Positions 212 through 43,470 of a stretch of DNA of 43,470 nucleotides are shown in pieces (position 1 is the stretch's first letter; each line of letters begins with the position of its first letter). The stretch lies in the NCBI GenBank assembly GCA_000934665.2, contig KZ538912.1, positions 1-43,470 on the forward strand, written 5' to 3'. A program made the translations under genes and the position numbers. Below the pieces are notes generated by a model. That model worked only from the letters and a program-made list of their open reading frames with translations, was not told the origin of the DNA and ran no database searches. The stretch comes from Catajapyx aquilonaris. Its lineage: Eukaryota.

Positions 212-295
212 NNNNNNNNNNNNNNNNNNNNNNNNNNNNNNNNNNNNNNNNNNNNNNNNNNNNNNNNNNNNNNNNNNNNNNNNNNNNNNNNNNNN
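212..295. other. Assembly gap (N run)
   Basis: Ns flanked by poly-G and poly-C; further gaps at 9597, 10327-10333, 17891, 23172, 23808-23939 and 27747. Confidence 0.99.
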
Positions 296-2587: not shown

Positions 2588-5500
2588 TTGTGACGAATTT
2601 TTTTGCCATAATTTAATGCTTCCAAAAATCATAGTAAAATAGCCGCGACTGGTAGCCACCAAAACCCAGCAGTTGGATAGAGAGAGAGAGAGAGCTAGAG
2701 AGAGAGAGAAAAAATAATAATCCGCAGGGGCCTCATGAAACAAATGGAAAATGACGCGAAATTAACTCCGGTGCTGCGAATTGCGGCCTGCCTTCACTTC
2801 CATGCCCCCCGCATTTCAAAACGAGGCCCGCAAACGTTCTGTCACACTTTGACAAACGTGCGAAATTGTCTATCATTACCGGAAATCCTGGAAAACGCTT
2901 TTCATCAGCAGATGACGTGGTCGCATTAATTTCTCCGTGCTTTTCGATAAATTGCGGTCCGGTTATCAAGTCTTTGTGATACGAATCAGGTACTAGGGAC
3001 GTTCATTTTTTATGCACAATTTTTGCGCAAATGGCGATTGGGTGCGCGTGCATGTAAACGGACGTGGCTTATTTTTTATGCGGACGTATAGCGCGATATC
3101 GCGCGTTTTTTAATTTGCAACATTTTTTGCACACAATTTATTAATCCTCTCCGGGTTATTTTTATGCATCAGCCTCGTAATAGCTCCTGGCTATCTAGCA
3201 ATAATTAGCAGCAACATTGCGATTTGAGTGCACGCAATAAAATAACGATACATCATCTTGAAGGATATCTATCGATAATTGAAATATCCTCGCGAATCTT
3301 CCACCTTACTCTTCTGGCAGGAAGAGAGAAGACGACCACCTTCTCTTGATAAAAAAAAGAAGAAGAAAAGAAGCAAGGAAAAAAGAAATCCGGAGCTCCG
3401 GATCCGCAATTCCTCACGCGAAGAGAGTCGATAGAAGAGGCCTTTTCCACCCTCGCTCCTTCCCCGTATTGACAAATTGAGGTCTCGTCGTGATTTTTAA
3501 TCTCTAGAGGGCGCCCTTGTATAAATTTTTTTTAAAGGGGGGACTATGGTGGGGTTGAGGGGGAGCGGGGCACCCTTCTCCTCTTTTTAGACTTGGCTGG
3601 AAAGATGCTATGGGTACAAGATATATAAAAAAAAAACGGAGAGGAAAAATCAGTAAAGATGAACCATCCGAAACGGGTTTTTTTTAATCCGGAACGATCA
3701 AAAACTTAAAATTAGTAAAATTTTGCAAAAAGCACACCGTTTGAAGCCTGGACTGACTTACCTGTTAGTTAAAGTGATTTTTTTTTCATATTGAGAGACC
3801 CGGCCGGTTATAGGAATCGGAGAGCGCGTGCCAGACACATTAGCGAGAAATTTAAATGTTATAGATTTAAAAATTATAGGAACATTTCGTGAGCTATCGT
3901 TCATTGCGTATAAATCATGCATATTTATTGCATTACACAACGAATTTAATATGAAATATTCTTAGTTATGTCATTACACAATCAATCAATCACGGCATTT
4001 TCCCAAAATGGGGGTTGCCAGCGATGACCCAGTCATCTTAATTACTGGTAAAATATTTTGGCATTAAATGAGGAATCTGGGATCAAAAACTTCAAAAAAA
4101 ATTTTAGATTGTGCCAGTGAGAGTTAATTAGTATTCATCAGTTTTTGCTCATTTTACGACCAGTTTTACAAGTGGACTGCTGTTTTTGATAATCCATCAA
4201 AATATTGTGTGAATCCATGATGATTTTTCATTCAGTTTTTGATTTTTTTGATATATGGAGGAACTCTCTATTTTTTTTGTTTCAAAAAATGGTATATAAG
4301 GAGGCCTTTGGCCAGGTCCTTTCCCTAGCACCATGATACATTTATGGTAGTAATTATAGGCTGTGGAGGGGATTCTTTATTGACTCAACGTCGGCCGCAT
4401 TAATTCGCATACGCCTAAAGGGTCAATGGGAGATCGATGTTGGTGGCGTTAGGGCAGTTTTATTCGCCTGCCTACGGTTAATTTATGCAGGTTTCGGGCT
4501 TATACACTGCGTGCATGTGTGTGTACGGCATAGAGAGAAGAGAGAGGAAGCTGAATACACGATGCAACTAGTCGATGTTCGTTAGCCTGGAATGTTTTTT
4601 TTTCGTTCACAGCAAGTTAAATGTGTGTCTAGAATTAGAACTGTTTTAGGAGATGACTTGTAGCACTTTATGGCGACAGTAAACCTAATGATAGCTGAGA
4701 TGCTTCGAGATATTATGGGGAGGCCGGAGCAGGTGTACTAAATACAGGGTACTAATTGGGCTTGATTGGTTCTGGTTCTACAGTGAACAGTAAGGTGTCT
4801 GCGAATATATGCACTACAATTATTGCACACAGTGTGATTCCAAACTAATATCCTAACAATGCCATATATACACTTTTGCGTCTCAGTAGAAGGTAACCCA
4901 AGCTCGAAATCATGTCGTATAGCCGAGTAGGGTTTAATTAGTCCGTTTTCTTTGGAAAAGGGGAGGGATGATGGGAGGACGGAAGTGGTAACAAAAGATC
5001 CGGAGACGTATTGATTGGGATCAGAGTGATTCGAGGGGGCGAAAAGGAGTCTCTGAGAGATCGGGTTGGGGAAATCTGCTCGGGTCGTGAAGAGCTCTCG
5101 AGAGCCGCGATTTCTCAGCATTTGCCCGCGATTTCGGGGATGTCGGGGCAAAGAAACCCCCCCCCCCTCCTTCTCCTCTCCCAAACTCCTCTCGTAGAGA
5201 TGGATGACTCGGATTCCTTTTCCTTCTCTGCTCGCATCCCCACGACAACTAGTAGTGCAAAATGATGCGGTAATTAACAGCCCATCATTTTCAGCACTAG
5301 AAATCTCTTCGTCGAGGTTGACACCTCCTTTGGCTTTTCATCCAGACGACACAAAGCGAGGTGTCGGGTTGGAAAGAGGAAGACGACGACTAGAAGGAGG
5401 CTTTCTTCTTCTTCAGTATAGTTTTTCTTTTCTGTCTTTCCAACACCGCTCTCTCTCTCTCTGGTCTTGTCTGTTTTCAGGCGGGGAAACGGGGCGTGGC

Positions 5501-23807: not shown

Positions 23808-23939
23808 NNNNNNNNNNNNNNNNNNNNNNNNNNNNNNNNNNNNNNNNNNNNNNNNNNNNNNNNNNNNNNNNNNNNNNNNNNNNNNNNNNNNNNNNNNNNN
23901 NNNNNNNNNNNNNNNNNNNNNNNNNNNNNNNNNNNNNNN
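23808..23939. other. Assembly gap (N run)
   Basis: Ns flanked by poly-C. Confidence 0.99.
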
Positions 23940-25466
23940 CCCCCCCCCCTCTCTCTCCTTTTACCCTCCCCATTTTTTCATCATTAATCATCGCTATTGT
24001 AATGTAGTGCTCATCTTTTTAGCCAAAATAAGGTTTACCCGTGTAAAACTCCAACGTCGCCAAAACACGATATAATAATGCAGTATTTTTACATCCATGT
24101 AAAATCCTGTACGGTTGAAAAAAATCCTGTAAAATATTGTAAATAATATACTGTATATGGCAGAAAAACAACAACAGTGTGATGGAACTATATATATAAG
24201 ATTACAGAATAATTAAAAGAGAGAAAAAAATGGTGATAATGTGAGAAAAAAATATACAGAGAAATACGAGCTGCAGCTGATTTTAAAAAAGAAGAACTTT
24301 GGTTTCCTGGCACTGCCCTGGCATCTCATTCGCCCGTGTACACTCGTGAGTGGATGTATAGTCTATTGTAAGCTCATCATTGTTACAGCCGTGTAATGAT
24401 TTTGGGAAACCCAGTAAAAATGGAAATGCACAAAAGCACACCGCACTGTCTTTCACTCACTTTTTTTTTTACTCCTTCCCTTTCAATTAACCAGCAATTT
24501 TTTAAAATTCATATGGTGCATTGTTGGTTTGAATCATCTGCATTGTTGGTCTTCTTATCCCAACAATCAGACATATGAATATTCTCTGCAAGTAAGTTCC
24601 AACCGTTGAAACTTACTTTTTGAAGTGTTTGCAAGGGGGATGTTGAAAAATAGACAGCTGCAAGTTCCTAATAATAACGATGTTTGTCTGCTGTTCTCGG
24701 GACGGTTTCCCAAAACCCGATTGTTGTCAGAAAGGGTGGAAAACCCGCCCCATTTTTTTTTTTGAATGGCATAATTTTTGGGGAAGGTTTGTGTTGCCTG
24801 CTAGTGGAGGATCCAATGCGTCTGGTTACAATAATTTCAATGGTGCATTTATGGTGTCGTACTGGTGGCGCCGTAAACAAAAGAGCGAATCGACATTTAA
24901 TTGTCCAGAACTGACTCATCCATATATTGGCAACCCCCTGCCACTAGCAAGCTTGCTAGAGTCGATTTTTACGCCCCTCTCCACAGCAGATTCGCGCGCT
25001 GATTAATTTTTTTTTGGGGACAACTGGAAGTGGTCCCAAATGGTCCTAATAGAGTCCGTGTTCATCCAGATGGTGATCCAATCCTGCCACCATATAAGCC
25101 GTCATCTTGCGAAAAAATCTGGGCAGGTGAAACTCCCTCCCCATCCCCCCTTTTCTTTCTCTCCCACCAGAATTTGCATGCAAGCTGTGACTCGGTGCAG
25201 AGGACTTAATCAGTCGATAAAATGAAAGCAGTGAAACTTTCCTATAGGGGGGGGAGGGCATCTTCCTCTCTCTCTCTTTCTACCACCTTCTTCCAAGCCT
25301 CTCCCACTATAGCAAACCCCCTTCATCCTGAGTAAAGCCAAGCAGTCGTCATCTTTCCGATTCCTATCATCTCTATGCCCTGGGTCCATACATATTAATG
25401 CACCTATACCCGAAGCTTCCAACTTTTTCAATTAATGTTTTATGAAGTTTTCTTCCAATTTTTTTT

Positions 25467-26004
<538 letters not shown>

Positions 26005-26214
26005 CCCCCTCATCCTCCCTCCTTCTTTGACCTGGAGGGTGGGGGTGGCAGAAGGGGGATGTGGAAAGATGCAGTTCTGAGGCTGAAAATTACTGCCAAT
26101 ATGTAGATGCACAGATGGGAAGTAAGGAAAAGGGGGACAAGATTAGTCCCTAACTTTCAGAGAGAGAGGGTAGGATCACATTTTAATATATTGCCATCAC
26201 TCTAGTACACTGCC

Positions 26215-26304
<90 letters not shown>

Positions 26305-26305
26305 C

Positions 26306-26338
<33 letters not shown>

Positions 26339-26339
26339 C

Positions 26340-26407
<68 letters not shown>

Positions 26408-26408
26408 C

Positions 26409-26452
<44 letters not shown>

Positions 26453-26476
26453 AATAATAATAATAATAATAATAAT
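26215..26476. repeat. Compound trinucleotide microsatellite (AAT)n/(ATC)n/(AAC)n
   Basis: Direct reading; blocks alternate in register. Confidence 0.97.
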
Positions 26477-26767
26477 GTAGAATTGGCGAGGTGTGACTTT
26501 GTCTCTACACGAGTCGATATAGGTGCATGTAGTTATCACGTGGCAATTAATTAAATTACGAATTATTTAAATATTATTAATATAATAATTGGATATAAAG
26601 GCGTGACTTTTGCCTACACTCTGACTCATCACCTAGGTGCATGTACTGTAGTTACCATAGTTGCAACGTGGGAATATAGAAAGAGGGAGGTTGAACGCCA
26701 TCTGGTTGCGACATAGCGTACTACGTACAAGTGGGAAGCGGGCCTGGCAGTGTTGCCAAATTTTTGT

Positions 26768-30048: not shown

Positions 30049-33000
30049 CTATTCTGGCATCGAAGCTTCGTGGCTAGGCTCTTCATTTACCTCGCCAGCC
30101 GTCCCGCTTTCCTCCGCCGCATCTTCCACCACGGTTGACGGGGTTGCCTCCAGGCTTGACGGTGGAGTTTGGCTTCTCCTCGACGTTATATCTGTAAGTA
30201 TTTCCTCCACCATGTCCGTCACATACTGCCGCACCTCCTCCGGGGCTTCCTCCTGGCGCTGCTGGCTCGACTTCGACCGGCTTCTGCTCGACAAAGCCAG
30301 CGATTTAGGACGCACCTGTCACAGAGGGCAAAAAACATGCACCACTATATACACAACTGAAACACAGACGCTAACAAAAATAAGAACAAACAAGCGAACG
30401 GAAAACATGCAGTACATTATTCTCCACCTGCAGGGTGTCCATCGCTCCGTCCGATGGCGGTACGGAGAATGGGAAGTGCTCGTCTTTTGGCGTCTGCACG
30501 GCCGTTATCATCGTCTGGATTGCAGCGGAGCATCGCTCTAAATACTGCTGCGGATTGGGCACCGGCAAGGTGTGACTCGACGGAGGTGCGGGAGACGGAC
30601 ACTGGCTGGTGAACTGTGCCATGCAGCCTAGGATGTGCTCGAATGAACCCTGCAGCTGCTGCACCTGCGTCTGCAGGATCGCACAGGTACGGCTCAGCTC
30701 GCTCACCGCGGCCTGCTCCTTCTCCCTTTCCTTCTCCCGCTCTCGGTCCCTCTCCCGTTCGCCGCTATCCGACGGTCCGGAGGTGCTCGGAGTCGGCATA
30801 GGAGGTTCGCTCATCTTCTGAAAGGAAAACGTTCTTGAAAAGGCTGGCATTTTGTAACAATCAAACGACTTATTTCCATACGAGGGGTCAGAGAATAATG
30901 TCCAGGTAGCGAAACTACAGACCTCCTTCCATATGGCACGGATGGCCTCCATTTGCAGCTTTCTGAGCTTCCTCTCGTTGTCCAGCTCCCCTTTGATGTG
31001 TTCCAGCTCCTTCATCAGATGCCGGATGTAGCTTTCGGCGCGGCTGTACCTCAGGTCCTCCAGGATCTTAACCACACGCGGATTCAGCCGCCTGGTCTGG
31101 TAGCCCCTCCAGCACTTTTGGATAACGGTGGCGGCTTTCGCCTCATTCGCCTTTCGCCGAACTTCAGGGGCAGGCTCGGCAGGAGGTGGCGGAGACTCAG
31201 ATTTGGCCGCCCTTGCCGTAGCTTCTCGAGCTGCCGCAGCCACCGCTTTACCTGCAAACAACCAGCGATTTAAGAGCGATTCAACCTGATTGTTCCACAT
31301 TACCTTCAAGGGTAAGTTTCCGTTCCTCCGCGATTCTCCGTATGCTCTCAAGCTTCTGGTTGAAGATGGCGTCACCGATGTCAGGCGACCCGGTGTCCTG
31401 TGGCGGTGGGGCAGGTGGTCTGCGGCGGGAGGGCAAAGGGGAAGCGGAGGGAGTGGTGCCGGTGAGAGGTGCGCCTATGCCACGGGGACGGAGAGTTGGA
31501 GAGCAGGAAGCAGGGGCAGTGTTGATGCGGCGGGTCTCAACGGCCACAATGGGTTTGCCGCATATTCGTGTGCCGCAGTGACGGGAAGATGAAGCAAGAG
31601 AGGCGGCTGGTCCTGCAGTAGGCGGCGGGATGCTGCGTGACATCTCCACATTCTGTAATGTAAATACGATTGTAAAATAAAACCGAGGGAGTACTTCCAT
31701 CGAACGTACCGCATCAGCACTCCTTTTCCGGGCCACAAGCGGCGACCTTGATGCGGCTATAAACCCTCCAAATATGAGATCATTTCTGGATGCCTTTGCT
31801 GGCTGCGGCTGCCCATTTCCGGCTCCTTCCCCTGACCCCTGACCTGCCCTGCATTTTGGTATCCCGTTCTGCTGACCTGCGTCCTTGGTGGCGCTGTTGG
31901 CAGGCGGGAATCGGTTGGATCTGGCTGCAACCGGGCAAAAGTCGGGGCTCATCATGGCTTCAGGGACAGGAACAAACTTGGTCGCAGCCTCTAAAGCAAT
32001 GCATGTGCTAATCCCTTCGTCGCTTATGTCCTGCATCACAAGGTCGCCAGGCTTTGACCTGCTGGCGACCGGTACTGACTGGAAGAGTGCTCCGTTGGTG
32101 ACCCTCTCTTCCTGTCCGGTCACACTCGCTCGGAGCATCTCCGGATCCAAGCTCTGCGACATGAGGGACGAAGTGGATGAGTTCAAATCCGAGTCCAGTC
32201 CTATGTCGTCCAAGTGGTGCGATGAGAGCGAGTCTGCGTCCATGCTGCGGGTCATGTCTGAGGCCGAGGCTGCACCAGACGCAATCCCATCACCTCCATA
32301 CAGTGTCGGAGGTAGTTCCACATTGTACGCCCCGGACGCCTCACACGACGAATTTGATCGTGACGACAATGGTCGTGGCGATGGTGTGAAGCCCTTCCGT
32401 CTGGCTATCTGGCGACGAAGCATTGGGGACAGCTTGGCCTCGCATGTCATTCGTGACGTCGACAATGCTGAGGTGGACACTGCGGCTGAGGTTGGGCGTG
32501 ACGGCTTTTCTTCCTCCTCTTCACTACCTGCAGATCGTTTAAAAGGGCAAATGAGCGGTACACTGATTTATTTCACACACCATTCATACCCTGTTTGGCC
32601 TGCTCTTCTCTAAGCTTGGTCTGATGCTCCTTTGCCTTGCTGAGAATCCGCATGAGCTTCTCGTCCTCCTCGTTACCCTGGTTTGAATCTTCCGCCGGAC
32701 AGAGCGGACATACAGTCGCCAGGTATTGTACTACAGCCTCGTGCTCACCAGGACGGAAGTGGCGACCTTTCCCTTGTGAGTACAACCACTCCGCTTTCAA
32801 ACTGAAATGAAAAATCACATTCGCAAGTCAACACACCAGATGCGGACAGATTCGCATGGACATTCACCTGTCTTTTGGTCCCACAATGAAGCCGTCCAAC
32901 ATCCGGAGGCTTAGACACCAGTTGATGACATACGGCCGATAGTCAAACCCACTGCGATTGAGTCAAGGCACTATTTCGTGTTGATGCAAATGAAAAATTA

Positions 33001-34142
33001 GTACACGAAAAGGATACACTGCTTGGCCAGTCATAATAACTGCGGGATTCCCAGCGATTGAAAAGTGCTCGAGCTGCGTTAGATGTGAGAGGAAGAAAAG
33101 CTCTGTAAGATCACATATCTCATTGTGCGAGAGGGTCAAGGTCACAAGGCTGGACGGCAGATAGATGTTGCAAAACTTGAGGGTTGAAATCTTGTTGCCG
33201 TGAAGCATCAGCTTCTGCAAATTAATTCGGGATTAATATCCGTCAGTTTGAAATTAATTTCAGCGAGCACTTACCTTGAGCGACTTGAGATGCGATACAT
33301 CCGAGATGTGCCCAATCGCGTTCTGTGAGAGGTCCAGGTACTCCAGGCGTACATTTGACGTCAAGTACTGAATATTCTGTAAAAAATGAAGCCGTGTCAT
33401 ATATTTGACCGCACTTTTCCAGTACCGGTAATAACCACCTTGATGTTGTTATCGGACAAATTAAGCCACGTGAGATGAACCAGATCTTTAAGTCCCTCGA
33501 TGCAGTTGATGCAATTTTTGGGCAGATTCAGCACCTGCAGCTGGTGCAGCCTCTGGACCCCCAGCATCCGCACGATCCTGTTGTTCGCTGCCGACAGTTT
33601 CAGTATGGACGCGTACGTGTCCAGGTTCTCCAGCCGTTGCAGCTCATTGTCGTCCACCACCAGGGTCACGAAAGGAGGCGACCCAGGCGCCAGGCGATCC
33701 AGCTTCTTCAGACCCTTTCGGGTCAGGTCAAGCGTCTCGTTCATGCCCTCCTGAGATTCTGGACCAGAATATTAATTAAATTTAAAAACTCTCTTTCCAT
33801 AGTTGTTACGGTTTGTTTTCTTCGCTTTCAACACAATGTTATTGTTGCCGACATGTAACTCGTATTTAGTTAAAATCACTGGACAGCTTCCAAAAAATGT
33901 GCCCCCGTTCAATACTTTGGAGCAAAAACATAATTTTTGGAACATGCCCAAAAAATTAATAAAATTCTTGCAGAGCTGTCACTTTTTTTTCTTCTTCTAT
34001 TTCTTTTTCAAAATTCGAATCTATCGAACACCAGCGTCCCATTAAAGAGTCATCTAAATGCCAGGCAGTTAATTACAAAATAGCCCCTAATTAAATCAAA
34101 AGAACAACTAAAATCAAAAGTGACATTACCTGAAGACGCCAT
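30049..34142 (-). CDS. CEP97: Centrosomal protein of 97 kDa (LRR + IQ motif), 11 coding exons, ~1026 aa
   Basis: Exons (minus): 34142-34130, 33758-33439, 33376-33275, 33214-33018, 32951-32868, 32801-32590, 32527-31710, 31652-31304, 31251-30923, 30817-30428, 30315-30049; total 3081 nt, frame continuous, all introns GT..AG. N-terminal leucine-rich repeats; CEP97-diagnostic segment [20 protein letters not shown]...[21 protein letters not shown]...[11 protein letters not shown] motif [16 protein letters not shown] followed by a coiled coil ([21 protein letters not shown]). Confidence 0.95.
32952..33017 (-). other. U12-type (minor spliceosome) GT-AG intron in CEP97, 66 nt
   Basis: 5' splice site GTATCCTTTT (U12 consensus RTATCCTTT); branch site TGCCTTGAC (consensus TTCCTTRAC) about 10 nt before the 3' CAG, with no polypyrimidine tract; splicing here joins ...GQAV to GFDYRPY in frame. 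Confidence 0.9.
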
Positions 34143-34673: not shown

Positions 34674-37600
34674 ATGAAGTGAGTGTGCCTCTTTCCCTTA
34701 TTGAAAATCTGTCCGGATTCCCGTCATCCCGAGCCCATCCTTGCCTCGCCACCAGTGGAGATGGAACCTGAGGAGACTGACCGTTCGTTTCCATTTCGCT
34801 TTGCAGGGTCGGACTGTGCGCCTTCAGCGGATACAAGATCTACCCCGGTCGGGGGAAGACCATGGTCAAGGCTGATGGAAAGGCACGTATAAGACGCCGC
34901 CGCCTTTAATAGTAATTAAAATTACTAATTAAAATTTATTTGCAGACCTTCACTTTCCTGAACTCCAAGTGTGAGCTTTCCTTCAAGATGAAGCGCAACC
35001 CAAGGAAGGTCACCTGGACCGTCCTCTACAGGTACAATTGTCGGCTTAACCATTGCCGGTTGCACCAATTATAACCGGCAGTTTTATTTGTGGAAGTGGC
35101 GTAATGTGTTTTTAGTTGCATTATTGATCGCATCGTGGTACTAGCCGTGAAATGTGCAAATATAGGTTTTGTGGGCATGTGGCGGCAAGAATTTTGTGTG
35201 GAACATAAGGAGAGAAGGCAAAGAGGGTACAATGCAATGATGAACATTATCAACCTGTCAATCTCATGACAATTCCTTGATTATTAATGACCACTGAGCA
35301 TTGTTGCCTAGAACACATGAAGTCACAATGAATGTAGTTTATAGAGGGGCGAAACATGTATGCAGCTTAGGGATTGTAAACACGTCTGTCTCGAGAAGCA
35401 CTCGTATGTTAGTCGAATGAGGATGACATTTTGCGTTTTTATTCCCAGGCGTAAGCACAAGAAGAGCCGTGAGGTTGTGCAGCAGCGCAAGCGTACCCGC
35501 CGTGTCCAGAAGTTCCAGAGGGCCTATGTTGGTGCCACCTGGACAGACATCATGGCCAAGCGGTCAATGAAGCCTGAGGTCAGGAAGGCCCTGAGGGAAC
35601 AGGCCATCCGTGCCGCAAAGGAGAAGAAGAGGGCCTCCCAGGCACCGAAGAAGCCCGAGAAGGCACCTGCCGCAGCCACAAAGGTATTGCTCTTAACCCA
35701 ACCTTTACACTTCTAATCATCTTGAACTCGTGGGATTGTTATCAAGCTGAGACAGTTTCACTCTGTCTCGGGAAATGACTGACTTAGAGTTGATTTTTTA
35801 AGTAGGCCAGCGTTGCGAATAGTGATGCACTTTGGTATCTCCTCCAGTCCAAAGCTCATTGGATTGGTGGTCGTCATTATTGGGTGCTATATGAAATGCA
35901 GGATCATCGTTGAGGGCTTGGCCATATCAAGTGTCATTCTCTCAGGTTAAGACCTGCAACATTCTCACATCACAGAATTTACATGTTGAAGTGCTGTTGT
36001 TAGTTTAAAATATTTAATGGTTATTTTTTGTATGACAAAGTATCATGAGTTCTATTATGTATTGGGGAACTAGCCTTGGTCTGGGATCTGGGATTTTTGT
36101 TAATAACTAGCTAGCCCATGCCTGTAAACACACATTCCATCACTCTATTGCATCAAAATGACATTACTGGATAAATTACTGTATATTTAAAAGTGCCTTC
36201 AAAATTAGAGGGGAAAAACGGGGCAGCGGGTGGTGCCAATCGAAAGGGTACACTGAAATACCTGGTTGACTGCGATATATGAGGAATTTGACTTTGAATT
36301 ACCTGCGGACACGATGGAAAGCATTTGCAAGGCGACTGTAGGCCATCGAGGTGGAGAAAGGAGGCCTTTATGTGCCTAATTTGGGAGACAGATAATTCCG
36401 AGCTGCTGGCATCACTGACACGCACGAAGCGGTTTGAGCGGCTTAGAGTAAAAACTCGCCCGTTACCTGGCAACTAAGTAAACACTTGGACTGCTAAAAT
36501 GTCAAGTCGTGTCCAGCACAGTACAGTGCTGGACAAATTAGCCGTCGCTGAATGGTTTTATTTTCCGTCGGCGACGGCGCTGCATTTCCTGGCAACCCCG
36601 TCCGGCGGGCCAATTCAAACACCAGCACATGGAGAGTGCTTCGATTGTTGCCACTGTTTACAAATCGAGGGAGTGACGCGGACGACCCAGCGACGGGTCT
36701 CTTCTGCCTTCTTACACAGTATCTGCAGGGATACGCAGGAGAAAGCGGGAAAATAATGATGTTAGAAGCAAACCACGTTGGGAAAATATTATCCATGGAC
36801 TCAAAGAAAGGCCTTCGTCCACAGCACACGAAATATATTCCACCCCCGAGGAGGGCGTGTCAATTAAGATCAGGGGTGTGCTAATTGAAAGTGCGTCAAC
36901 TGGCGGAATCTTTCGGTTTTTGTGTCTTTTCCGCGTACTTCGACACCTCGAAGACGAATGGAGACCATGCCCCGTATGACAGACACCACGTCAGTCGCGA
37001 AATTTGTCCCCAAAGATATCTCAAAATGGCTTCCGCTGTTCCGCATATACCAGTACGTGTAGTTCGCATCATATTCGCACCAGGAAGAGATACACGACTA
37101 ACATGACACGTACAGGGGTTGGACACAATAATATGAACACCTGCAACAAGCGTTAGTTGTGTATCTCTTCCTGGCGCGAATATGACGTGAACGACACGTA
37201 CTCGTAGGCCTATATGCGGAACAGCGGAAGCCATTTTGAGATATGACGTCTTTGGGGACAAATTACGCGACTGACGTGGTGTCTGTCATACGGGGCATAG
37301 TCTCCATTCGTCTTCGAGGTGTCGAAGTACGCGGAAAAGACACAAAGACCGAAAGAATCCGCCAGTTGACGCACTTTCAATTAGCACACCCCTGATCTTA
37401 ATTGACACCTCCTCCTCGGGGGTGGAATATATTTCCTGTGCTGTGGACGAAGACCTTTCTTTGAGTCCAGGGATAATATTTTCCCAACATGGTTTGCTTC
37501 TAACATCATTATTTTCCCGTTTTCTCCTGCGTATCCCTGCAGATACTGTGTAAGCAGGCAGAAGAGACCCATCGCTGGGTCGTCCGCGTCACTCCCTCGA

Positions 37601-38491
37601 TTTGTAAACAGGGGCAACAATCGAAGCACTCTCCATGTGCTGGTGTTTGAATTGGCCCGCCGGACGGGGTTGCCAGGTAATACAGCGCCGTCGCCGACGA
37701 AAAAAAAATTCAGCGACGGCTAATTTGTCCAGCAGTGTACAACCGTACAACCACACAACGAACAAATTTACGACCCTGCCGGGGCGCGTTCTATAACATC
37801 ATTTTTGCGTTCATTTCACTTCGCGTGACGTCAACATTTTTGAGGGAAATGGTGACGTCACCATTTCCCTTCGAAAAAACCCTAATTATTCCGGAACTGA
37901 AACTGATTTCTTAAAACGGAATATGCCAAAAATATCCAAAAAATATGGGCGAATTTTTGTAGTTTCCAAAATGAAGGCTAGTTCCTCATTATATCAAAAT
38001 TCGGTATATATTTGTATTCAGTGAGATACGAATTTATTTCAGAGCGGTGATTTTTGTTTCTATGCAACAACATGCAAATTTCAAAAATTAATATCTCGAA
38101 AACGCAATTTTTAATGGGCAATATTTTTTTTATACCGGTATTTCATAAAGAAAGGACCAGTTCTGTGATAAAATAATATGAAAACCTGCTCTAGATTCTT
38201 GATAAATGAAATACTAATTTATGAAAAGTGTTTGCTCTCATTTAGTGTCTTTCAACATCCTTGCAGGTCTAGAGTCGTAATGAACTATAACAGTAGTGAT
38301 TGACACCCACTGGCTGATCTGAAATGGAACTACCCACATAAGATTGTAGCAACGAATCACTTATATTCATCACTTTATTCCAATTCATGCTTTGACGTTG
38401 ATTTTTTTCCTCCTATTTCCAGAGCCAGCCTAAGGAGAAGATTGTGAAGCCCACGCAAAAGAGTGCGCCTCGTGTCAGTGGAAAGCGCTAA
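34674..38491 (+). CDS. RPL24: 60S ribosomal protein L24 (eL24), 5 coding exons, 156 aa
   Basis: Exons 34674-34678, 34807-34882, 34946-35031, 35449-35683, 38423-38491 (471 nt). Translation [61 protein letters not shown]...[38 protein letters not shown]...[14 protein letters not shown] at ~38520. Confidence 0.97.
35230..35303 (+). ncRNA. Box C/D snoRNA, SNORD110-like (predicted 18S rRNA 2'-O-methylation guide), in RPL24 intron 3
   Basis: Terminal stem CAATGC/GCATTG; C box ATGATGA 35237-35243; D' ATGA 35266-35269; C'-like TTGATTA; D box CTGA 35294-35297. Guide TATCAACCTGTCAATCT is complementary (one mismatch, one G-U) to conserved 18S GGAUUGACAGAUUGAUA, with the same spacing to D' as recalled for human SNORD110 (Um1288). 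Confidence 0.85.
35826..35964 (+). ncRNA. Box H/ACA snoRNA, SNORA8/snR31-like (18S pseudouridylation guide), in RPL24 intron 4
   Basis: Hairpin 1 (GCAC...GTGC), H box ATATGA 35889-35894, hairpin 2 (TGCAGG...CCTGCA), ACA at 35959-35961 plus 3 nt. Pocket 1 guides GGTATCT and TCGTC pair perfectly around 18S GACGA-UC-AGAUACC (human Psi1056, yeast Psi999). Pocket 2 guides CATCGTT and GGTT fit 18S ACCA-UA-AACGAUG (human Psi1081) with one mismatch. Confidence 0.88.
36524..37737. mobile_element. Fold-back MITE / non-autonomous Tc1-mariner-type element with ~580-bp inverted arms
   Basis: 36524-~37102 is the near-perfect reverse complement of ~37152-37737 (ORFs 36552..36884+ and 37381..37629- are mirror images). 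Termini CAGTGCTGGACAAA...TTTGTCCAGCAGTG resemble Tc1 ends and are flanked by TA on both sides (36522-23, 37738-39). No transposase ORF. Confidence 0.85.
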
Positions 38492-39734: not shown

Positions 39735-40198
39735 AAAAATTGGAATTGCCCCAGATAGTGTCATCATATAGACTTGTGATGTACAGTATAAAATTAAAGA
39801 TGTAATTAAAAATGACCAGGAATATTTTAATTTTTAATTCATTTTATTTTATTTTATTTACCCCATTGGGCATGATTGCCGTTGGGGGGAGAACAGCTGC
39901 CACGGCAATTACAAGATAGAGGAGAAAAGTTCTCCTGACGACATAAAACCAAATTGTTTTAACATTTGTTTTCATTATACATACCTACGTAAAACCACCA
40001 CATGTCCACACAGCAACTGGCATGATAGATCTGTTTACATGCAAAATATACTGTACCGATACTATACGATATTCTTCACCGCCTCGATCCATTTAGGGTG
40101 GTCAGCGATAGCCAGATACATGCATCTGGCCATTTCATGCAAACTATGGTACTAATAATACACAGTATAATATATAGGCTAGTGTGGGTCTGACATTG

Positions 40199-42110
40199 TT
40201 ATCGCTTCCTGGCAGGATTTCTGTCAAGAAAGTCTTTGCAGATGCGCTGCATGTTCGGATTCTTTAGGCTGGAGATTTCCTCCAGGATCGAGTCCCTGGA
40301 GTTCTCTTCGAACTCCTTGTAAATCTCTAGGAGACCGATGTCCCTGTAGAGGTTCTTCACTCGGGACACGTGCTTGGGGTCCTTGGATCCGTAGTACTCC
40401 TGAAATTATGGGGGTTATTACGAGATTAGGACACTTGCAAAATATAGACTGACAAGTTCTTTCAGATATCACGAAGCATGCAGGGGAAGCAAAGTGCAAC
40501 ATGATTCGCTTGATGTACTAGTACCTCCAGAGTCACCCTCTGATGGTGATCCGCGTGCTTGAGGGCAGTGACCACCAGCCAGGTGCACTTCCCCTCCTCG
40601 ATGTCAGTCCCTCCATTACCCGTGACCTCTGGGTCACCGAAGCAGTCCATGTAGTCCTCCTGGACTTGGAAGAGGTGACCGATCTTAAAGAGGACGCTCT
40701 CCGCTTCCGAGTAAAGATCTTGGTCCTGGATGCCTGCCTGAAAGCAACCATGTGAATGTCAAACTCGGACTGCCTAGAAAGGTAGACGTTTAGGTCAATT
40801 CATTCTACTGTTTCTATTATTGCTATCTCAAAGGATAGCTGTGCAACTAACCATTATCATTGCGATTTTTATGGGCTGAATGAAGAAGTGGTATGAGGTC
40901 TTGTACTTGACTATTGTTGCGTATCTCTCTTCTGTGAACAGGTCAAGCTGGGGATTGCTTCTGGATGAGGTCAGAATGCTCAGGGACTGACCCTTTCCAA
41001 TCTTGAATATTACCTTCAGAAGGACATGGAACATATAATGACACGCGCTTGGCTGACAGAATGTAAAGGTCTGCTTGACCACTGGATGATTTATAGAAAT
41101 AATATTATTATATCTGGATAACAGAACTACCCATTATTCATTTTCCAATGATTCTTACCAATCGAAAGAGAATGAATTCAGATAATTTTATTGTTGTCTT
41201 TGTATAGTATTACCTCGTTGAAAAGTTCGACGCACTTGTTGTAGTAGGTCTGTTCTCGATGGTATTTCCACAGGATGTGGAAGGCGGCCCTTTCCATGAT
41301 CAAGGCGTCATTGAAGGCCTTTGGTCCCAGCTCTTTGGTCAAGTACCAGCAGGGCTGACCTTTTCTGGTCTTCGAACAGTCCATTATGTCGTCAGTCACG
41401 AAACATGCTGCCTGCAACTGTTATTTAAAATATCAGCTAACTTAGAACATTGTTTTCGGAGGATAACATACTAAGTTAGTACTTAACATACGGTACGTGT
41501 TTTATGACAACAGATGGGTCCTGCTGCGTGCCCACTCTATATTATGTAATCAGTGCTACAAAGTGAGGGGAACCGTACCAAAAAATCACGTAGGCCTAAT
41601 TTTTTTTACGTAACCCCTGATTGGACCAGAGGCCCTTATAGGGGGGTGGAATACCACCAAATATTCACGTAATTTTAAAACAATTCATTTGCCTGGTCAT
41701 TGCGAAAGGCGCCAGTTCCGGGAGAATCACCCATAGACGCATTGCACTGAATATTCTATTACTCACCAGCTCGTTGCACCAACCCATCAGATGTGCCAAC
41801 CTGATGTTCTCTTCTGTGAGGTCTTCCTTCTCTGCCAGGCTGGAATAGGCCTCTACCACAATCATGCCTAGGTTCATTTTCCCTCCGAGAAGGTTGTAGT
41901 TCAACACCTGAAACGACAACAGGGTAGCAGTGCAGCATGTATAGGCAAAGAGGCCGGCAGTAATTATTGTGTCCGGACCTTTTTGTACCAGGTGTCGAAT
42001 TCCCGCAAGGCTTTGTCTTCATTTCCAGAGGAGGCCAGGCTCTCAATGACCTCGGAGGAAAGAGCCAAGAAGGCGTCCTTGTCGTAGTTTTCAGCATCAG
42101 CATTTCCCAT
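40199..42110 (-). CDS. Farnesyl diphosphate synthase-family (trans-IDS) protein, divergent; possible IDS-type terpene synthase; 6 exons, 350 aa
   Basis: Exons (minus): 42110-41979, 41907-41767, 41417-41214, 41013-40852, 40737-40525, 40399-40199, all phase 0 with GT..AG introns. Motifs: GGKMNLG, GWCNELLQAACFVTDDIMD (FARM), TRKGQPCWY, AFNDA, GQSL, IVKYKT, FQVQEDYMD (SARM), GTDIEEGKCTW, C-terminal ARKR*. Confidence 0.92.
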
Positions 42111-43470
42111 ATTTATGAGAATTCACGATTGAAACTTCACTAATTCTGCCATGAAAAAACTCGGGTGAAGGGGTGAGCCAGTCTGCCTGGAGCAGAGGTG
42201 CTAGACAAGTATTCTGTATACCACATGCATGTAACAAGTACCGTACAACTTTACAAATAAAGCTGGTTTCCTTTACATGTTATATTTCTTACTAACAGAT
42301 TGAGCTCCCTATGGTGTAATAAATCAATAGGTTAATTCAAACTGATGAGAGCTGAAAACAATACGTCATTCCAATTAGCTGAAATTTTTTGCATGCTTCA
42401 GATTTCTCTGCCAAATTCCTGGGATGCCCGGTGTAGCAATTTCAACCAAATTCAAACCATAAAATTGATCGGTGGATGCACTTGGATACACACTCATAAT
42501 GTAAGTGCGCCTGTATTTAAATGCAAGAAAAGAGAGCTACAAAATGACCTTTGTGAATCTGTCGTTTGTGTCTCCTATCTCATCACTGACTAAAACATGT
42601 TACAGGAAAATATGAAGCTGGTACTAAGGATCTTAGATGCCGTACTTACCGTAGCACAGTGTATAGCCTACGTATACGAGTATGTGACCTGACTCTCTGG
42701 GTAGCCTGAATGAGTGGCAAATTAAAATGTCTATTCTTTATATATGATAGAAATGTTACGAAAAGTATACAAAAGTATTGTATAAGCGCGCGCGTCCTCG
42801 CATTCAATTGTGCAAGAACGAAGCTGTGAGAGTCAAGGCTGAGAAACTAATAATCATCAAGAGAAAGAAATTGCAACATAGCTACACAGTGTAACATTAT
42901 TCTCGCTATCCTTTTTCGTGCCTCTAATTTCTTAGTCGTAGTAACGTATTCAAAATATAGAGCAGTACACTGAAAACTTAGACGCTTGATATTTTAGATT
43001 GACAAGTAAAGTTTGTACAGTAGATGTCAATAAAATCATTAAAATCCATTTGTTACGCAAATGTTACATGATCTTTCTTAATTATTTGCGAAGTGCTAGA
43101 TAAGATTGTGTGTTATACCAACAGGTGGGAATATTTGCACCGTAATTATCCAATAAATTACGCCTTGCGATCTACATGAAAAGTTGTGTGCTCGAACGCC
43201 ATGGAAAAAGTGAGATTTTTGTTGCAAAACTTCTGTTACGCCAATTGTTACAAGGGTAAGATGATACTTGCTTTTTGAATTAAAAATATTCTGAAAATGG
43301 CAGCACGAATCAGACTGCCGTCAGTGAACACGCAGCTGGTATTACCGCGCGGTTCTGATAAGTTTGACTTGATCTACACTCTTAGTCCGGTCACCTTTAA
43401 TATCCCCTTTAGAGTTGTTTTAAAGGTGATCCGTAATGCGGCAGTAGGGAATTATAGGTGATTCGTTGAA

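What the first reader, a model, noticed from the sequence alone, without database searches (positions are those of the whole stretch)
40199..42110. Intact FPPS paralog with a terpene-synthase-like pattern of active-site substitutions (candidate IDS-type TPS)
Seen: an uninterrupted 350-aa, 6-exon ORF with clean splice sites and a retained FARM DDIMD. Compared with canonical FPPS (human numbering from memory) it shows GGKxNRG->GGKMNLG (R60->L), TRRG->TRKG (R113->K), GQxLD->GQSLS (D174->S), YKTAFYSF->YKTSYHFF (Y204->H), SARM QDDYLD->QEDYMD (D243->E) and GKIGTD->GNGGTD (K257->N). The chain-length-limiting aromatics at -4/-5 before the FARM (FF) are replaced by A/C. Established: insect terpene synthases (flea beetle Phyllotreta striolata, stink bugs) evolved from FPPS-type IDS proteins and typically lose basic IPP-binding residues and these aromatics. 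Inference: this gene may be an independently evolved terpene synthase for pheromone or defence compounds, or a prenyltransferase with altered chain length, rather than the housekeeping FPPS.
Basis: partly seen in the sequence, partly recalled or inferred. Interest (0 to 1): 0.85.

Follow-up and report, generated by a model that had tools for sequence, protein, structure and literature searches.

The report
Diverged FPPS duplicate, possible terpene synthase
This is an intact, spliced copy of the animal's farnesyl diphosphate synthase gene that has lost key substrate-binding residues while normal copies sit elsewhere in the genome, so it is a credible but untested candidate for a new enzyme function such as terpene synthesis.

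Summary
A minus-strand gene (42110..40199) has 6 exons, 5 phase-0 GT..AG introns and encodes 350 aa of the polyprenyl synthase family. Against 20 full-length FPPS relatives, the gene departs at 11 of 62 conserved columns, versus 0-6 for the relatives. These include R60L, R113K, D174S, Y204H, D243E and K257N, plus A/C at -5/-4 before an intact DDIMD.

New here: public contigs of the same organism carry canonical-type paralogs. They are at least 90% identical in exons 3-5 and read D, L, K, V and YSFYL where this gene reads E, M, N, G and HFFIQ. So a normal FPPS exists, and this copy is a fairly recent derived duplicate. One run holds a contig of this locus with intron 2 removed.

It cannot be an efficient FPPS. 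A terpene-synthase-like role is the leading reading (about 0.35) but is unproven. Characterised insect IDS-type synthases keep the D174 position, and most keep K257; this gene has changed both (by eye). Rivals are a decaying duplicate, a non-catalytic partner, or an altered prenyltransferase. The taxon is unresolved.

The parts
41979..42110 (-). Exon 1 (44 codons, ATG at 42110-42108). The donor gtccgg follows 41979.
   Evidence: An in-frame stop lies 5 codons upstream. The exon end is supported by a paralog mRNA contig in X5. Its unaligned letters beyond 41906 read ..RDFDSWFKK directly into exon 2 (table 7, decoded by hand).
41767..41907 (-). Exon 2 (47 codons). It holds GGKMNLG, i.e. K57 kept and R60L.
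   Evidence: An X5 contig (record 23, 3 differences in 143 nt) covers it and joins 41767 to 41417 (table 5).
41418..41766 (-). Intron 2 (349 nt). It holds a high-copy repeat at about 41580-41663.
   Evidence: The X5 joint skips exactly this stretch with GT..AG ends. The DNA runs show depth of about 4,056-4,336 in bin 41580-41663 against roughly 70-130 in flanking bins.
41214..41417 (-). Exon 3 (68 codons). It holds A/C at -5/-4, L100F, FARM DDIMD and TRKG (R112 kept, R113K).
   Evidence: Up to 8 DNA contigs overlap position 41300, all with the canonical-type letter.
40852..41013 (-). Exon 4 (54 codons). It holds GQSLS (D174S) and KTSYHFFIQ (K200 and T201 kept; Y204H, S205F, L208Q).
   Evidence: X5 contigs (records 19-21) with 0-1 differences lie on it. 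Paralog DNA contigs clip at 40892 and read YSFYL beyond that point (decoded by hand). An X5 joint at 41007>41208 (cut +6, i.e. 41013>41214) matches intron 3.
40525..40737 (-). Exon 5 (71 codons). It holds SARM QEDYMD (D243E, L246M) and GNGGTD (K257N, I/V258G). D244, D247, D261 and K266 are kept.
   Evidence: Paralog contigs read D, L, K, V and S at these codons.
40199..40399 (-). Exon 6 (66 codons plus a TAA stop). The C-terminal basic tail ..ARKR keeps the R351 equivalent.
   Evidence: A second haplotype contig (X2 record 11) has 5 substitutions in intron 5 and none in 161 nt of the flanking exons 5 and 6.
39848..39863 (-). Two AATAAA signals, starting 340 and 350 nt downstream of the stop (first letters at window 39858 and 39848). 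This is a possible 3' end.
   Evidence: An X5 contig identical to the window covers 39944-40163 (record 17). That stretch has 2-3x DNA depth, so it may be repeat-derived.

Best explanation
The gene is a lineage-specific, moderately young duplicate of the animal's farnesyl diphosphate synthase. It is still maintained as a coding gene but no longer works as an FPPS.

Shown:
- Half of the published IPP-contact residues are replaced: 7 of 14 (R60L, L100F, R113K, Y204H, S205F, D243E, K257N).
- The two aromatic residues that form the floor of the chain-length pocket are replaced by Ala and Cys.
- The first Asp-rich motif and R112, K200, T201, Q240, D244, D247, D261 and K266 are kept.
- Canonical-type paralogs exist elsewhere in the genome.

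Inferred:
- IPP can no longer be bound productively, so chain elongation is lost.
- The protein can still bind an allylic diphosphate through the FARM-Mg cluster and ionise it in a deeper pocket. It would release a terpene or prenyl alcohol instead of condensing with IPP. That makes it an IDS-type terpene synthase that arose independently of the insect ones.
- The changes at D174, D243 and K257 would then be a remodelling of the second metal/diphosphate site rather than its loss.
For: 1. The ORF and all 5 splice-site pairs are intact. A contig of this locus in run X5 has intron 2 removed, and that contig shares two variants with the DNA contig of the same locus (records 23 and 6).

2. The model departs at 11 of 62 conserved columns, against 0-6 in 20 reference FPPS. 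Six of the 11 are published ligand-contact residues. Contact columns changed in 6 of 20 cases and other conserved columns in 5 of 42. This is only a trend (one-sided Fisher p = 0.085).

3. R60, R113 and K57 make the salt bridges to the IPP diphosphate. L100 contacts the IPP tail (PMC7815940, passages). Y204 and S205 position Q96 and R60, and Y204F/A raise Km(IPP) 19-24 fold (PMC4652608, passages and Table 2).

4. Published features of insect IDS-type synthases are met. These are loss of IPP-contact residues (PMC10108439, sections 2.3-2.6), non-aromatic residues at -4/-5, and loss of the KKxR arginine (PMC6140472, passages). The characterised Murgantia synthase also reads FRKG, the same R113K change (by eye).

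5. Canonical-type paralogs are present in the same organism. Contigs at least 90% identical in exons 3-5 read D243, L246, K257, V258, S at model residue 265 (T in the window gene), Y204, S205 and L208. Up to 4 contigs overlap position 40657 and up to 8 overlap 41300.

6. Coding constraint. Between haplotypes of this locus there are 3 differences in 482 exon nt and at least 11 in 343 intron nt (p = 0.006). With fully listed records only, the counts are 3 in 454 and 6 in 243 (p = 0.07). CDS GC3 is 0.695 against intron GC of 0.33-0.51. My rough inference is that at about 7% neutral change per site, an unselected 1,050-nt ORF with 5 introns would very rarely stay free of stops, frameshifts and splice-site hits.

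7. A similar set of changes recurs in an unnamed FPPS-like protein, P0245: R60F, Q96H, F98S, F99S, R113H, Y204L, D243N, K257N.
Against: 1. No enzymatic, metabolite or tissue data exist.

2. D174S, D243E and K257N touch the allylic-diphosphate/metal side, which a terpene synthase also needs. R112, K200 and K257 form the direct salt bridges to the allylic diphosphate. In 8 characterised IDS-type synthases in Rebholz Table S7, the D174 position is kept in 8 of 8 and K257 in about 7 of 8. The first SARM residue is D or N, never E (aligned by eye, not computed).

3. All 3 coding differences between haplotypes are non-synonymous (A26T, E63Q, N89I). Of the 20 listed exon differences to paralogs or haplotypes, 13 are non-synonymous. 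This fits relaxed constraint as well as it fits adaptation.

4. Contigs of this locus in X5 have word depth 2-4, whereas canonical-type contigs have 148-188. The tool warns that contig depth is a poor measure of expression.

5. FPPS-like proteins with a canonical FARM and an altered SARM often show no activity in assays. In Planococcus citri, 1 of 3 tested had weak IDS activity and none showed terpene synthase activity (PMC10960109, passages).

6. No ortholog carrying the derived residues was found in any search. Conservation of the derived state is therefore not shown.
Confidence: 0.35

Rival explanations
1. It is a duplicate under relaxed selection on its way to becoming a pseudogene. In a multi-copy FPPS family, one redundant copy accumulates replacements at catalytic residues. 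It is still open and transcribed only because it is young.
For: - The family has several copies at 90% or more nucleotide identity in exons 3-5.
- The replacements hit residues needed for any class I chemistry: K257N, D243E and D174S.
- All 3 haplotype coding differences are non-synonymous. In the exon-5 comparison with the canonical-type transcript, 6 of the 9 listed differences are non-synonymous. That is close to what a neutral branch paired with a constrained branch would give (my estimate).
- Contigs of this locus have low word depth in X5 (with the tool's caveat).
Against: - The gene has 350 intact codons, 5 intact GT..AG pairs and no indels in the exons. By contrast, introns of the same locus show 2-5 nt indels and 2.5-7% substitutions between haplotypes.
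- Exons are less variable than introns.
- Changes lean towards ligand-contact columns rather than being spread over all conserved columns (6 of 20 against 5 of 42). This is not significant.
- GC3 remains at 0.695.
Confidence: 0.22
2. It is a catalytically impaired partner subunit. The protein keeps the FPPS fold and dimer interface and pairs with a canonical FPPS paralog, changing that enzyme's activity or product length. From memory, plant GPPS small subunits do this for GGPPS, and heteromers of type-1 and type-2 lepidopteran FPPS have been reported.
For: - Residues of both substrate sites are changed while most non-contact conserved columns are kept (37 of 42 unchanged).
- Canonical partners at least 90% identical in the core exons exist in the same organism.
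Against: - There is no direct evidence.
- The FARM is fully intact.
- The opening of the chain-length pocket (F98A, F99C) has no obvious reason in a silent subunit.
- In Planococcus, pairwise mixtures of IDS candidates changed no activity (PMC10960109, passages).
- The partner's full sequence was not obtainable, so no complex prediction was possible.
Confidence: 0.15
3. It is a prenyltransferase with altered specificity. [quoted passage not shown]
For: - Replacing the two Phe residues upstream of the FARM turned Murgantia FPPS into a GGPPS (PMC6140472, passage).
- Rebholz et al. note that a misaligned IPP tail may give irregular coupling (PMC10108439, Discussion passage).
- The FARM, K57, Q96, F239, Q240 and the R351 equivalent are kept.
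Against: - R60L, R113K, Y204H and S205F together remove the network that holds the IPP diphosphate.
- K257N and D243E should lower turnover.
- From memory, and not seen here, D243E and R113K in rat FPPS each cut activity by about two to three orders of magnitude.
Confidence: 0.13
4. It is an ordinary housekeeping FPPS of a divergent lineage.
For: It belongs to the animal FPPS group in the tree. The best PDB matches are all FPPS.
Against: - It departs at positions invariant in 20 of 20 relatives. These positions are also conserved in 174 (D243) and 181 (K257) of 186 family representatives.
- The same organism has canonical-type copies that keep these residues.
Confidence: 0.03

Closest known systems
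Insect IDS-type (FPPS-derived) terpene synthases, e.g. Murgantia histrionica sesquipiperitol synthase, Nezara viridula TPS and Phyllotreta striolata TPS1-4
   Same: - It is derived from an FPPS duplicate while a bona fide FPPS is retained.
- The FARM is kept.
- The IBM-1 arginine (R60) is lost.
- The R113 position is changed: K in Murgantia, Y in Phyllotreta.
- The residues at -4/-5 are non-aromatic.
- The IBM-4 residues are changed.
Sources.
   Different: - This gene keeps K57, E93, Q96, F239 and Q240. Overall it keeps 7 of 14 contact residues. The paper reports about 10% conservation in characterised synthases and 98% in IDS.
- It changes D174 (kept in 8 of 8 by eye) and K257 (kept in about 7 of 8).
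- It has E, not D or N, at the first SARM position.
- It is far less diverged from its canonical paralog: about 7-9% nucleotide difference in exons 3 and 5.
- It does not group with the ant or mite FPPS clades, the only named arthropod clades in the tree; no characterised insect synthase was included.
Canonical animal FPPS (human or avian FPPS; PDB 1ZW5, 1UBX and others)
   Same: - Same family, length and exon-coded core.
- The best PDB hits are FPPS, with E-values from 4.7e-20 (best) to 3e-17 (human chains).
- The FARM, R112, K200, T201, Q240, D244, D247, D261 and K266 are kept.
   Different: - R60L, L100F, R113K, D174S, Y204H, S205F, D243E, L246M and K257N.
- F98A and F99C.
- Only 37-46% identical to full-length relatives.
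FPPS-like paralog expansions of unknown function, e.g. Planococcus citri transIDS8-13 and 18, and ant FPPS-like genes
   Same: - The FARM is canonical and the SARM is altered.
- The family is expanded.
- The departure from conserved columns is similar: ant paralogs P0034-36 and Monomorium X2 depart at 12-13 of 60-62 columns, this gene at 11 of 62.
- Most such proteins have no demonstrated activity.
   Different: - The Planococcus FPPS-like SARMs start with N, and the ant paralogs keep D243 and K257.
- This gene's closest paralogs are canonical-type and very similar in sequence.

Membership tests
trans-isoprenyl diphosphate synthase / FPPS family (Pfam PF00348) | Sequence match to the polyprenyl synthase profile and to solved FPPS structures | tested here: met
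   Exons 3 and 5 score above the Pfam cut-off (E 4.1e-12 and 2.7e-19). Exons 2 and 4 score below it. Fifty PDB sequences match exon 5 at E <= 1e-8, nearly all named FPPS.
trans-isoprenyl diphosphate synthase / FPPS family (Pfam PF00348) | First aspartate-rich motif DDxxD | tested here: met
   DDIMD at model residues 100-104.
trans-isoprenyl diphosphate synthase / FPPS family (Pfam PF00348) | Second aspartate-rich motif DDxxD | tested here: not met
   The motif reads EDYMD. The first Asp is D in 174, N in 9 and E in 1 of 186 family representatives.
Functional FPPS (chain elongation with IPP) | IPP diphosphate clamp K57, R60 and R113, with the Y204/S205 positioning network | tested here: not met
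   K57 is kept. R60L, R113K, Y204H and S205F are changed. The roles come from PMC7815940 and PMC4652608.
Functional FPPS (chain elongation with IPP) | Aromatic residues at -5/-4 before the FARM that stop elongation at C15 | tested here: not met
   The model has A and C. The references have F/Y at 15 of 20 (position 98) and F at 14 of 20 (position 99).
Functional FPPS (chain elongation with IPP) | Allylic diphosphate salt bridges R112, K200 and K257 | tested here: not met
   R112 and K200 are kept; K257N is changed. K is present in 181 of 186 representatives.
IDS-type terpene synthase (insect type) | Substitutions at direct IPP-contact residues of IBM-1 to IBM-5 and the SARM (heuristic of Rebholz et al. 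2023) | tested here: met
   Seven of 14 contact residues are changed. As whole motifs, the model matches none of the six IBM or SARM expressions at the homologous sites. However, only 2 of 21 relatives pass all eight expressions, so the whole-motif test is weak.
IDS-type terpene synthase (insect type) | [quoted passage not shown] | tested here: met
   The model has A and C. The criterion comes from PMC6140472.
IDS-type terpene synthase (insect type) | Retained metal and allylic-diphosphate binding residues (FARM, SARM aspartates, D174, K257) | tested here: inconclusive
   The FARM, D244, D247 and D261 are kept. D174S, D243E and K257N are changed. Characterised synthases keep D174 in 8 of 8 and mostly keep K257 (by eye).
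IDS-type terpene synthase (insect type) | A separate bona fide FPPS in the same genome | tested here: met
   Canonical-type paralog contigs are present in the DNA runs and in X5. Only exon-sized pieces were seen, not a full-length gene.
IDS-type terpene synthase (insect type) | Conversion of GPP, FPP or GGPP to terpene products without IPP | not testable with these tools
   This needs a recombinant enzyme assay.
Pseudogene | Frame disruption, lost splice sites or no transcript | tested here: not met
   The ORF and splice sites are intact. A spliced contig of this locus is present in X5.
Non-catalytic IDS-like regulatory subunit (plant GPPS small-subunit type) | Loss of the aspartate-rich motifs and an obligatory heteromer with a catalytic subunit | tested here: inconclusive
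   The FARM is intact and the SARM is partly kept. Heteromer formation was not testable because the partner sequence was not obtainable. The description of the plant subunits is recalled, not checked here.

The most novel reading that the evidence does not exclude
This would be an early stage of the switch from prenyl-chain elongation to terpene synthesis, caught in the act. A terpene synthase would have arisen independently of the insect clades, in an animal with no close annotated relative. It would still differ by only about 7-9% at the nucleotide level, in the core exons, from the canonical FPPS it came from. About a dozen active-site replacements would separate the two. The pair would allow the minimal mutational path from IDS to TPS to be reconstructed directly.
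Probability: 0.2. Interest if true: 0.75.

Novelty: new member of a known kind. Interest (0 to 1): 0.45.

Why it matters
Animals were long thought not to make their own terpenes. In insects, terpene synthases have turned out to be recruited FPPS or GGPPS duplicates, and the mutations behind that switch are still described as unknown (abstract of PMC10108439).

Most known examples are old and heavily diverged from their parent enzyme. Here the derived copy and canonical-type copies coexist in one genome. In exons 3-5 they differ mainly at active-site codons. If the derived copy has a new activity, swapping a dozen residues between the two proteins would test the loss-of-IPP-binding hypothesis directly.

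If it has no activity, it is an ordinary example of a duplicate losing function. It would also be a caution against predicting terpene synthases from motif loss alone.

Tried and rejected
- Whole genome: none is held for this window. Paralogs could therefore not be retrieved in full, and no dN/dS could be computed.
- Earlier notes of this scan: nothing found by place, sequence or words.
- Word-based protein searches with exon 5. These gave 36 of 51 and 6 of 6 candidates. None was closer than 73% identity (over 63% of exon 5; at most 70% where at least 75% of the exon was covered), and the window's own protein is not in the collection.
- Exhaustive representative search with exon 5. It found 1,513 proteins at E <= 0.001. 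The top hit, P0103, is a mispredicted protein with the region twice. The best full-length identities to the model are 36.6-46.5%. No ortholog with the derived residues was found. This is weak evidence, because representatives stand for clusters at 50% identity.
- Taxon. The CEP97 exon search gave only 48-59% identity to fishes, odonates and mosquitoes. Rfam found nothing in the window. In the FPPS tree the gene is an unresolved long branch (0.93 against a median of 0.25) beside Daphnia. The taxon is left open.
- Sequencing runs: no RNA holder is listed. That X5 is RNA-derived is my inference. It rests on its intron-skipping joints, its zero depth on introns 2-5 (apart from one low-depth contig near 41719, the sequence beside the intron-2 repeat), and its zero depth on the high-copy repeat itself (about 4,000x in the DNA runs).
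- Uncovered parts. In X5, exons 1 and 6 and intron 1 have no cover. This is not evidence of anything.
- Whole-motif IBM regular expressions. These are too strict to discriminate, because 19 of 21 relatives fail at least one. The single 'IBM-5' match in the model lies at the wrong site.
- Enrichment of changes at contact residues: only a trend (p = 0.085).
- Structure prediction, fold search and complex prediction were not run. Those tools take only unspliced window translations or database proteins, and the partner paralog's sequence is unknown.
- Characterised synthase sequences from Rebholz Table S7 could only be compared by eye, not aligned by program.
- Literature searches for FPPS-derived synthases outside insects and for the rat FPPS D243E/R113K mutagenesis returned nothing usable. 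The mutagenesis figures are recalled only.
- Beran et al. 2016 (Phyllotreta) is not in the library.
Full report
**1. What is in the sequence**

On the minus strand between 42110 and 40199 there is a six-exon gene.
- E1 42110-41979
- E2 41907-41767
- E3 41417-41214
- E4 41013-40852
- E5 40737-40525
- E6 40399-40202, with the stop at 40201-40199

The gene has 350 codons. All five introns are phase 0 and GT..AG. The first donor (gtccgg) and the third acceptor (ctgaag) are weak. An in-frame stop lies five codons upstream of the ATG.

Exons 2-5 match Pfam PF00348. Exons 3 and 5 score above the curated cut-off; exons 2 and 4 score below it. No second copy lies in the 43-kb window (tblastn).

The neighbours on the low-coordinate side are not related to isoprenoid metabolism. 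They are an eL24 exon on the plus strand and a CEP97-like LRR+IQ gene on the minus strand. The gene lies 1.36 kb from the window's end, so what follows on the other side is unknown.

**2. The substitutions are real and unusual**

I aligned the spliced protein, computed from coordinates, with the FPPS relatives found with exon 5. A 353-aa lizard FPPS (P0016) carries K57, R60, D103, D107, R112, R113, D174, K200, T201, Y204, D243 and K257 at exactly those numbers. I therefore used its numbering. That this equals the human numbering is recalled. It agrees with the residue roles quoted in the papers read, and Rebholz et al. use the same residues at +14.

Against 20 full-length relatives, 62 columns are at least 90% conserved. 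The four ant paralogs were set aside as test cases. The gene departs at 11 of the 62: R60L, L100F, R113K, T167I, D174S, Y204H, L208Q, D243E, L246M, K257N and F341C. The 20 relatives depart at 0-6 (median 1). The four ant FPPS-like paralogs depart at 12-13.

F98 and F99, at -5/-4 before the FARM, are A and C. The following are kept: the FARM DDIMD, K57, E93, Q96, R112, Q171, K200, T201, F239, Q240, D244, D247, D261, K266 and the R351 equivalent.

In a wider sample of 186 family representatives aligned over exon 5 (186 of 187 could be aligned), the counts are as follows.
- D243 position: D 174, N 9, and E, Q, A once each.
- K257 position: K 181, N 2, and E, Q, R once each.
- Only 2 of 186 have both positions changed.

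**3. What those residues do, from papers read here**

- R112, K200 and K257 form direct salt bridges to the allylic diphosphate (PMC7815940, passages).
- K57, R60 and R113 form direct salt bridges to the IPP diphosphate. L100 and F239 contact the IPP tail (same source).
- Y204 and S205 hold Q96 and R60 in place. Y204F and Y204A raise Km(IPP) 19- and 24-fold and lower kcat 5-8 fold (PMC4652608, passages and Table 2).
- Of the 14 direct IPP-contact residues of Rebholz et al. (IBM-1 to IBM-5 and the SARM; PMC10108439, Table 1), the gene keeps 7 and changes 7: R60L, L100F, R113K, Y204H, S205F, D243E, K257N.
- The paper reports 98% conservation of these positions in insect IDS and about 10% in characterised insect synthases. 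This gene is intermediate.
- I recall, but did not see here, that D243E and R113K in rat FPPS each lowered activity by two to three orders of magnitude.

Together these changes make efficient FPP synthesis very unlikely.

**4. The new evidence: canonical-type paralogs in the same organism**

Four DNA runs and one further run of 'organism A' hold the stretch. I laid three of them (X1 and X2, both DNA, and X5) on 39900-42400 at 90% likeness or more.

*Extra depth on the core exons.* In the DNA runs, exons 3-5 carry far more depth than the flanks. X1 shows 296, 854 and 465 in the exon bins, against about 70-130 in flanking bins. Several contigs overlap single exon sites: 8 at 41300 and 4 at 40657. 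This extra depth stops at the exon borders.

*Coding effect of the differences.* The other contigs read the canonical residue where this gene is odd.
- E240 > D (D243)
- M243 > L
- N254 > K (K257)
- G255 > V
- T265 > S
- C105 > S
- I131 > L

At 40892 the paralog contigs stop aligning. Their unaligned letters, translated by hand, read YSFYL where this gene reads HFFIQ (Y204, S205, L208).

*Conclusion.* The genome holds several FPPS genes, perhaps 4-7 loci, though contig depth is only a rough guide. They are canonical at these sites and 91-93% identical in nucleotides to this gene in exons 3 and 5. This gene is the derived one.

Whether R60, R113, D174 and F98/F99 are also canonical in the paralogs could not be seen. 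The table was truncated, with 27 rows not shown, and the aligned pieces did not cover all the sites.

**5. Transcription and splicing**

Run X5 is not on record as RNA. It has no depth on introns 2-5, apart from one low-depth contig near 41719 (the sequence beside the intron-2 repeat), and none on the high-copy repeat itself in intron 2 (about 4,000x in the DNA runs). It holds contigs that skip 41418-41766 (intron 2) and 41014-41213 (intron 3), both with GT..AG ends. Neither joint appears in the DNA runs (table 5).

The intron-2 contig (record 23, 3 differences in 143 nt) shares two variants, N89I and E63Q, with the only X1 DNA contig at that place. That DNA contig runs into both flanking introns. 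The X5 contig is therefore a transcript of this locus.

The intron-3 contig (record 22) has 13 differences in 186 nt, so it belongs to a paralog.

Other X5 contigs with high word depth (148 and 188) are canonical-type. Their unaligned ends run straight across the E1|E2 and E4|E5 borders (..RDFDSWFKK| and ..M|AGLFDKRS.., decoded by hand). This supports those two exon borders by homology. Intron 5 has no transcript support.

The tool warns that contig depth cannot rank expression. I use it only to say that both kinds of transcript exist.

**6. Is the copy still under selection?**

For:
- The ORF and splice sites are intact, with no indel in any exon.
- Introns of the same locus differ between haplotypes by 2.5-7% and carry 2-5 nt indels.
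- Counting haplotype differences gives 3 in 482 exon nt and at least 11 in 343 intron nt (Fisher p = 0.006). With only the fully listed records, the counts are 3 in 454 and 6 in 243 (p = 0.07).
- GC3 is 0.695, against 0.33-0.51 in the introns.
- My rough estimate is that about 7% neutral change per site on this branch would give some 70-80 substitutions and several indels in 1,050 nt. Staying open by chance would then be very unlikely.

Against:
- All three coding haplotype differences are non-synonymous.
- Thirteen of the 20 listed exon differences are non-synonymous.
- In exon 5, 6 of the 9 listed differences to the canonical-type transcript are non-synonymous. That contig has 16 differences in all.

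Changes lean towards ligand-contact columns (6 of 20 against 5 of 42) but not significantly (p = 0.085). The fair reading is reduced but not absent constraint.

**7. Comparison with known IDS-type terpene synthases**

Two published hallmarks are met.
- Non-aromatic residues at -4/-5, and loss of the KKxR arginine (PMC6140472, passages).
- Substitutions at IPP-contact residues (PMC10108439, sections 2.3-2.6).

The whole-motif regular expressions are a poor test. The gene matches none of the IBM or SARM expressions at the right place, but only 2 of 21 relatives pass all eight.

I read the sequences of eight characterised synthases in Table S7 of that paper by eye. They are Murgantia, Nezara, five Phyllotreta, and the Ips pini GPPS/myrcene synthase.
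- All eight keep the Asp corresponding to D174.
- About seven keep K257.
- The first SARM residue is D or N.
- Murgantia has the same R113K change.

So this gene shares the IPP-side syndrome. It goes further on the metal/diphosphate side (D174S, D243E, K257N), which a class I synthase also needs.

A similar set of changes, including K257N, occurs in an unnamed FPPS-like representative. P0245 has R60F, Q96H, F98S, F99S, R113H, Y204L, D243N, K257N and K266A. That combination is therefore not unique, but its function is unknown there too.

FPPS-like proteins with an altered SARM often give no activity in assays. In Planococcus citri, 1 of 3 tested had weak IDS activity and none showed synthase activity. 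Mixtures of candidates changed nothing (PMC10960109, passages).

**8. Relatives and taxon**

The gene is 37-46% identical to full-length FPPS from arthropods and vertebrates. In a 25-row tree it is an unresolved long branch (0.93 against a median of 0.25) in the animal FPPS group next to Daphnia. It lies outside the ant and mite clades (quick search, SH-aLRT support only).

Neither the protein nor a close ortholog is in the collections searched. The CEP97 neighbour finds nothing closer than 59%. I could not place the organism more precisely than 'animal'.

**9. Verdict**

The gene is a real, open, transcribed FPPS paralog with a dismantled IPP site and an opened chain-length pocket. It is recently derived from canonical-type copies that still exist in the genome. 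It is not the housekeeping FPPS.

The terpene-synthase reading is the best single mechanism (about 0.35). The evidence does not separate it from decay under relaxed constraint (0.22), a silent partner subunit (0.15) or an altered prenyltransferase (0.13).

As a kind, FPPS-like paralogs with such patterns are common in insects. Rebholz et al. classed 88 of 240 FPPS-type sequences as predicted or validated synthases. It is therefore a new member of a known kind. What is unusual is how close it still is to its canonical parent.

Noticed in passing
window 36557-37016 and 37249-37708: A large inverted repeat with 460-nt arms that are 96% complementary, separated by 232 nt. Mirror-image ORFs appear on both strands. 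It may be a foldback or other transposable element.
   Followed up: partly
window 30371-33771, minus strand: A CEP97-like gene. One exon has leucine-rich repeats (Pfam LRR_8, E 1.1e-07) and another has an IQ motif (E 2.1e-05). The best named hits are centrosomal protein of 97 kDa from fishes, odonates and mosquitoes, at only 48-59% identity.
   Followed up: partly
window about 35430-35680, plus strand: An exon encoding the C-terminal two thirds of ribosomal protein eL24. It matches residues 51-132 of mammalian eL24 (E 1.6e-21). Pfam gave no hit for this piece.
   Followed up: yes
window 41580-41663 (inside intron 2 of the gene): A short, very high-copy repeat. DNA contig depth is about 4,056-4,336, against roughly 70-130 in flanking bins. 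One haplotype contig lacks 126 nt here (joint 41538>41665). Run X5 has no depth on it.
   Followed up: no
window 25440-26000 and 26190-26480: Very long microsatellites: about 560 nt of (GA)n, followed by about 300 nt of AT-rich trinucleotide repeats. They show up as RERE.., SLSL.. and NNN../III.. ORFs in all frames.
   Followed up: no
window 212-295 and 23808-23939: Runs of N (84 and 132 nt) flanked by poly-G on one side and poly-C on the other. This looks like an assembly or masking artefact rather than biology.
   Followed up: no
window 40400-40524, 41014-41120, 41720-41766: Haplotype contigs of the same locus differ by 2.5-7% in the introns and carry small indels. The organism therefore appears highly heterozygous, or the assembly and the runs come from different individuals.
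   Followed up: partly
proteins P0245, P0246, P0150 (unnamed representatives): These FPPS-like proteins from unknown organisms show the same kind of substitution syndrome: R60 lost, F98/F99 changed, Y204 lost and D243N. P0245 also has K257N and K266A.
   Followed up: partly
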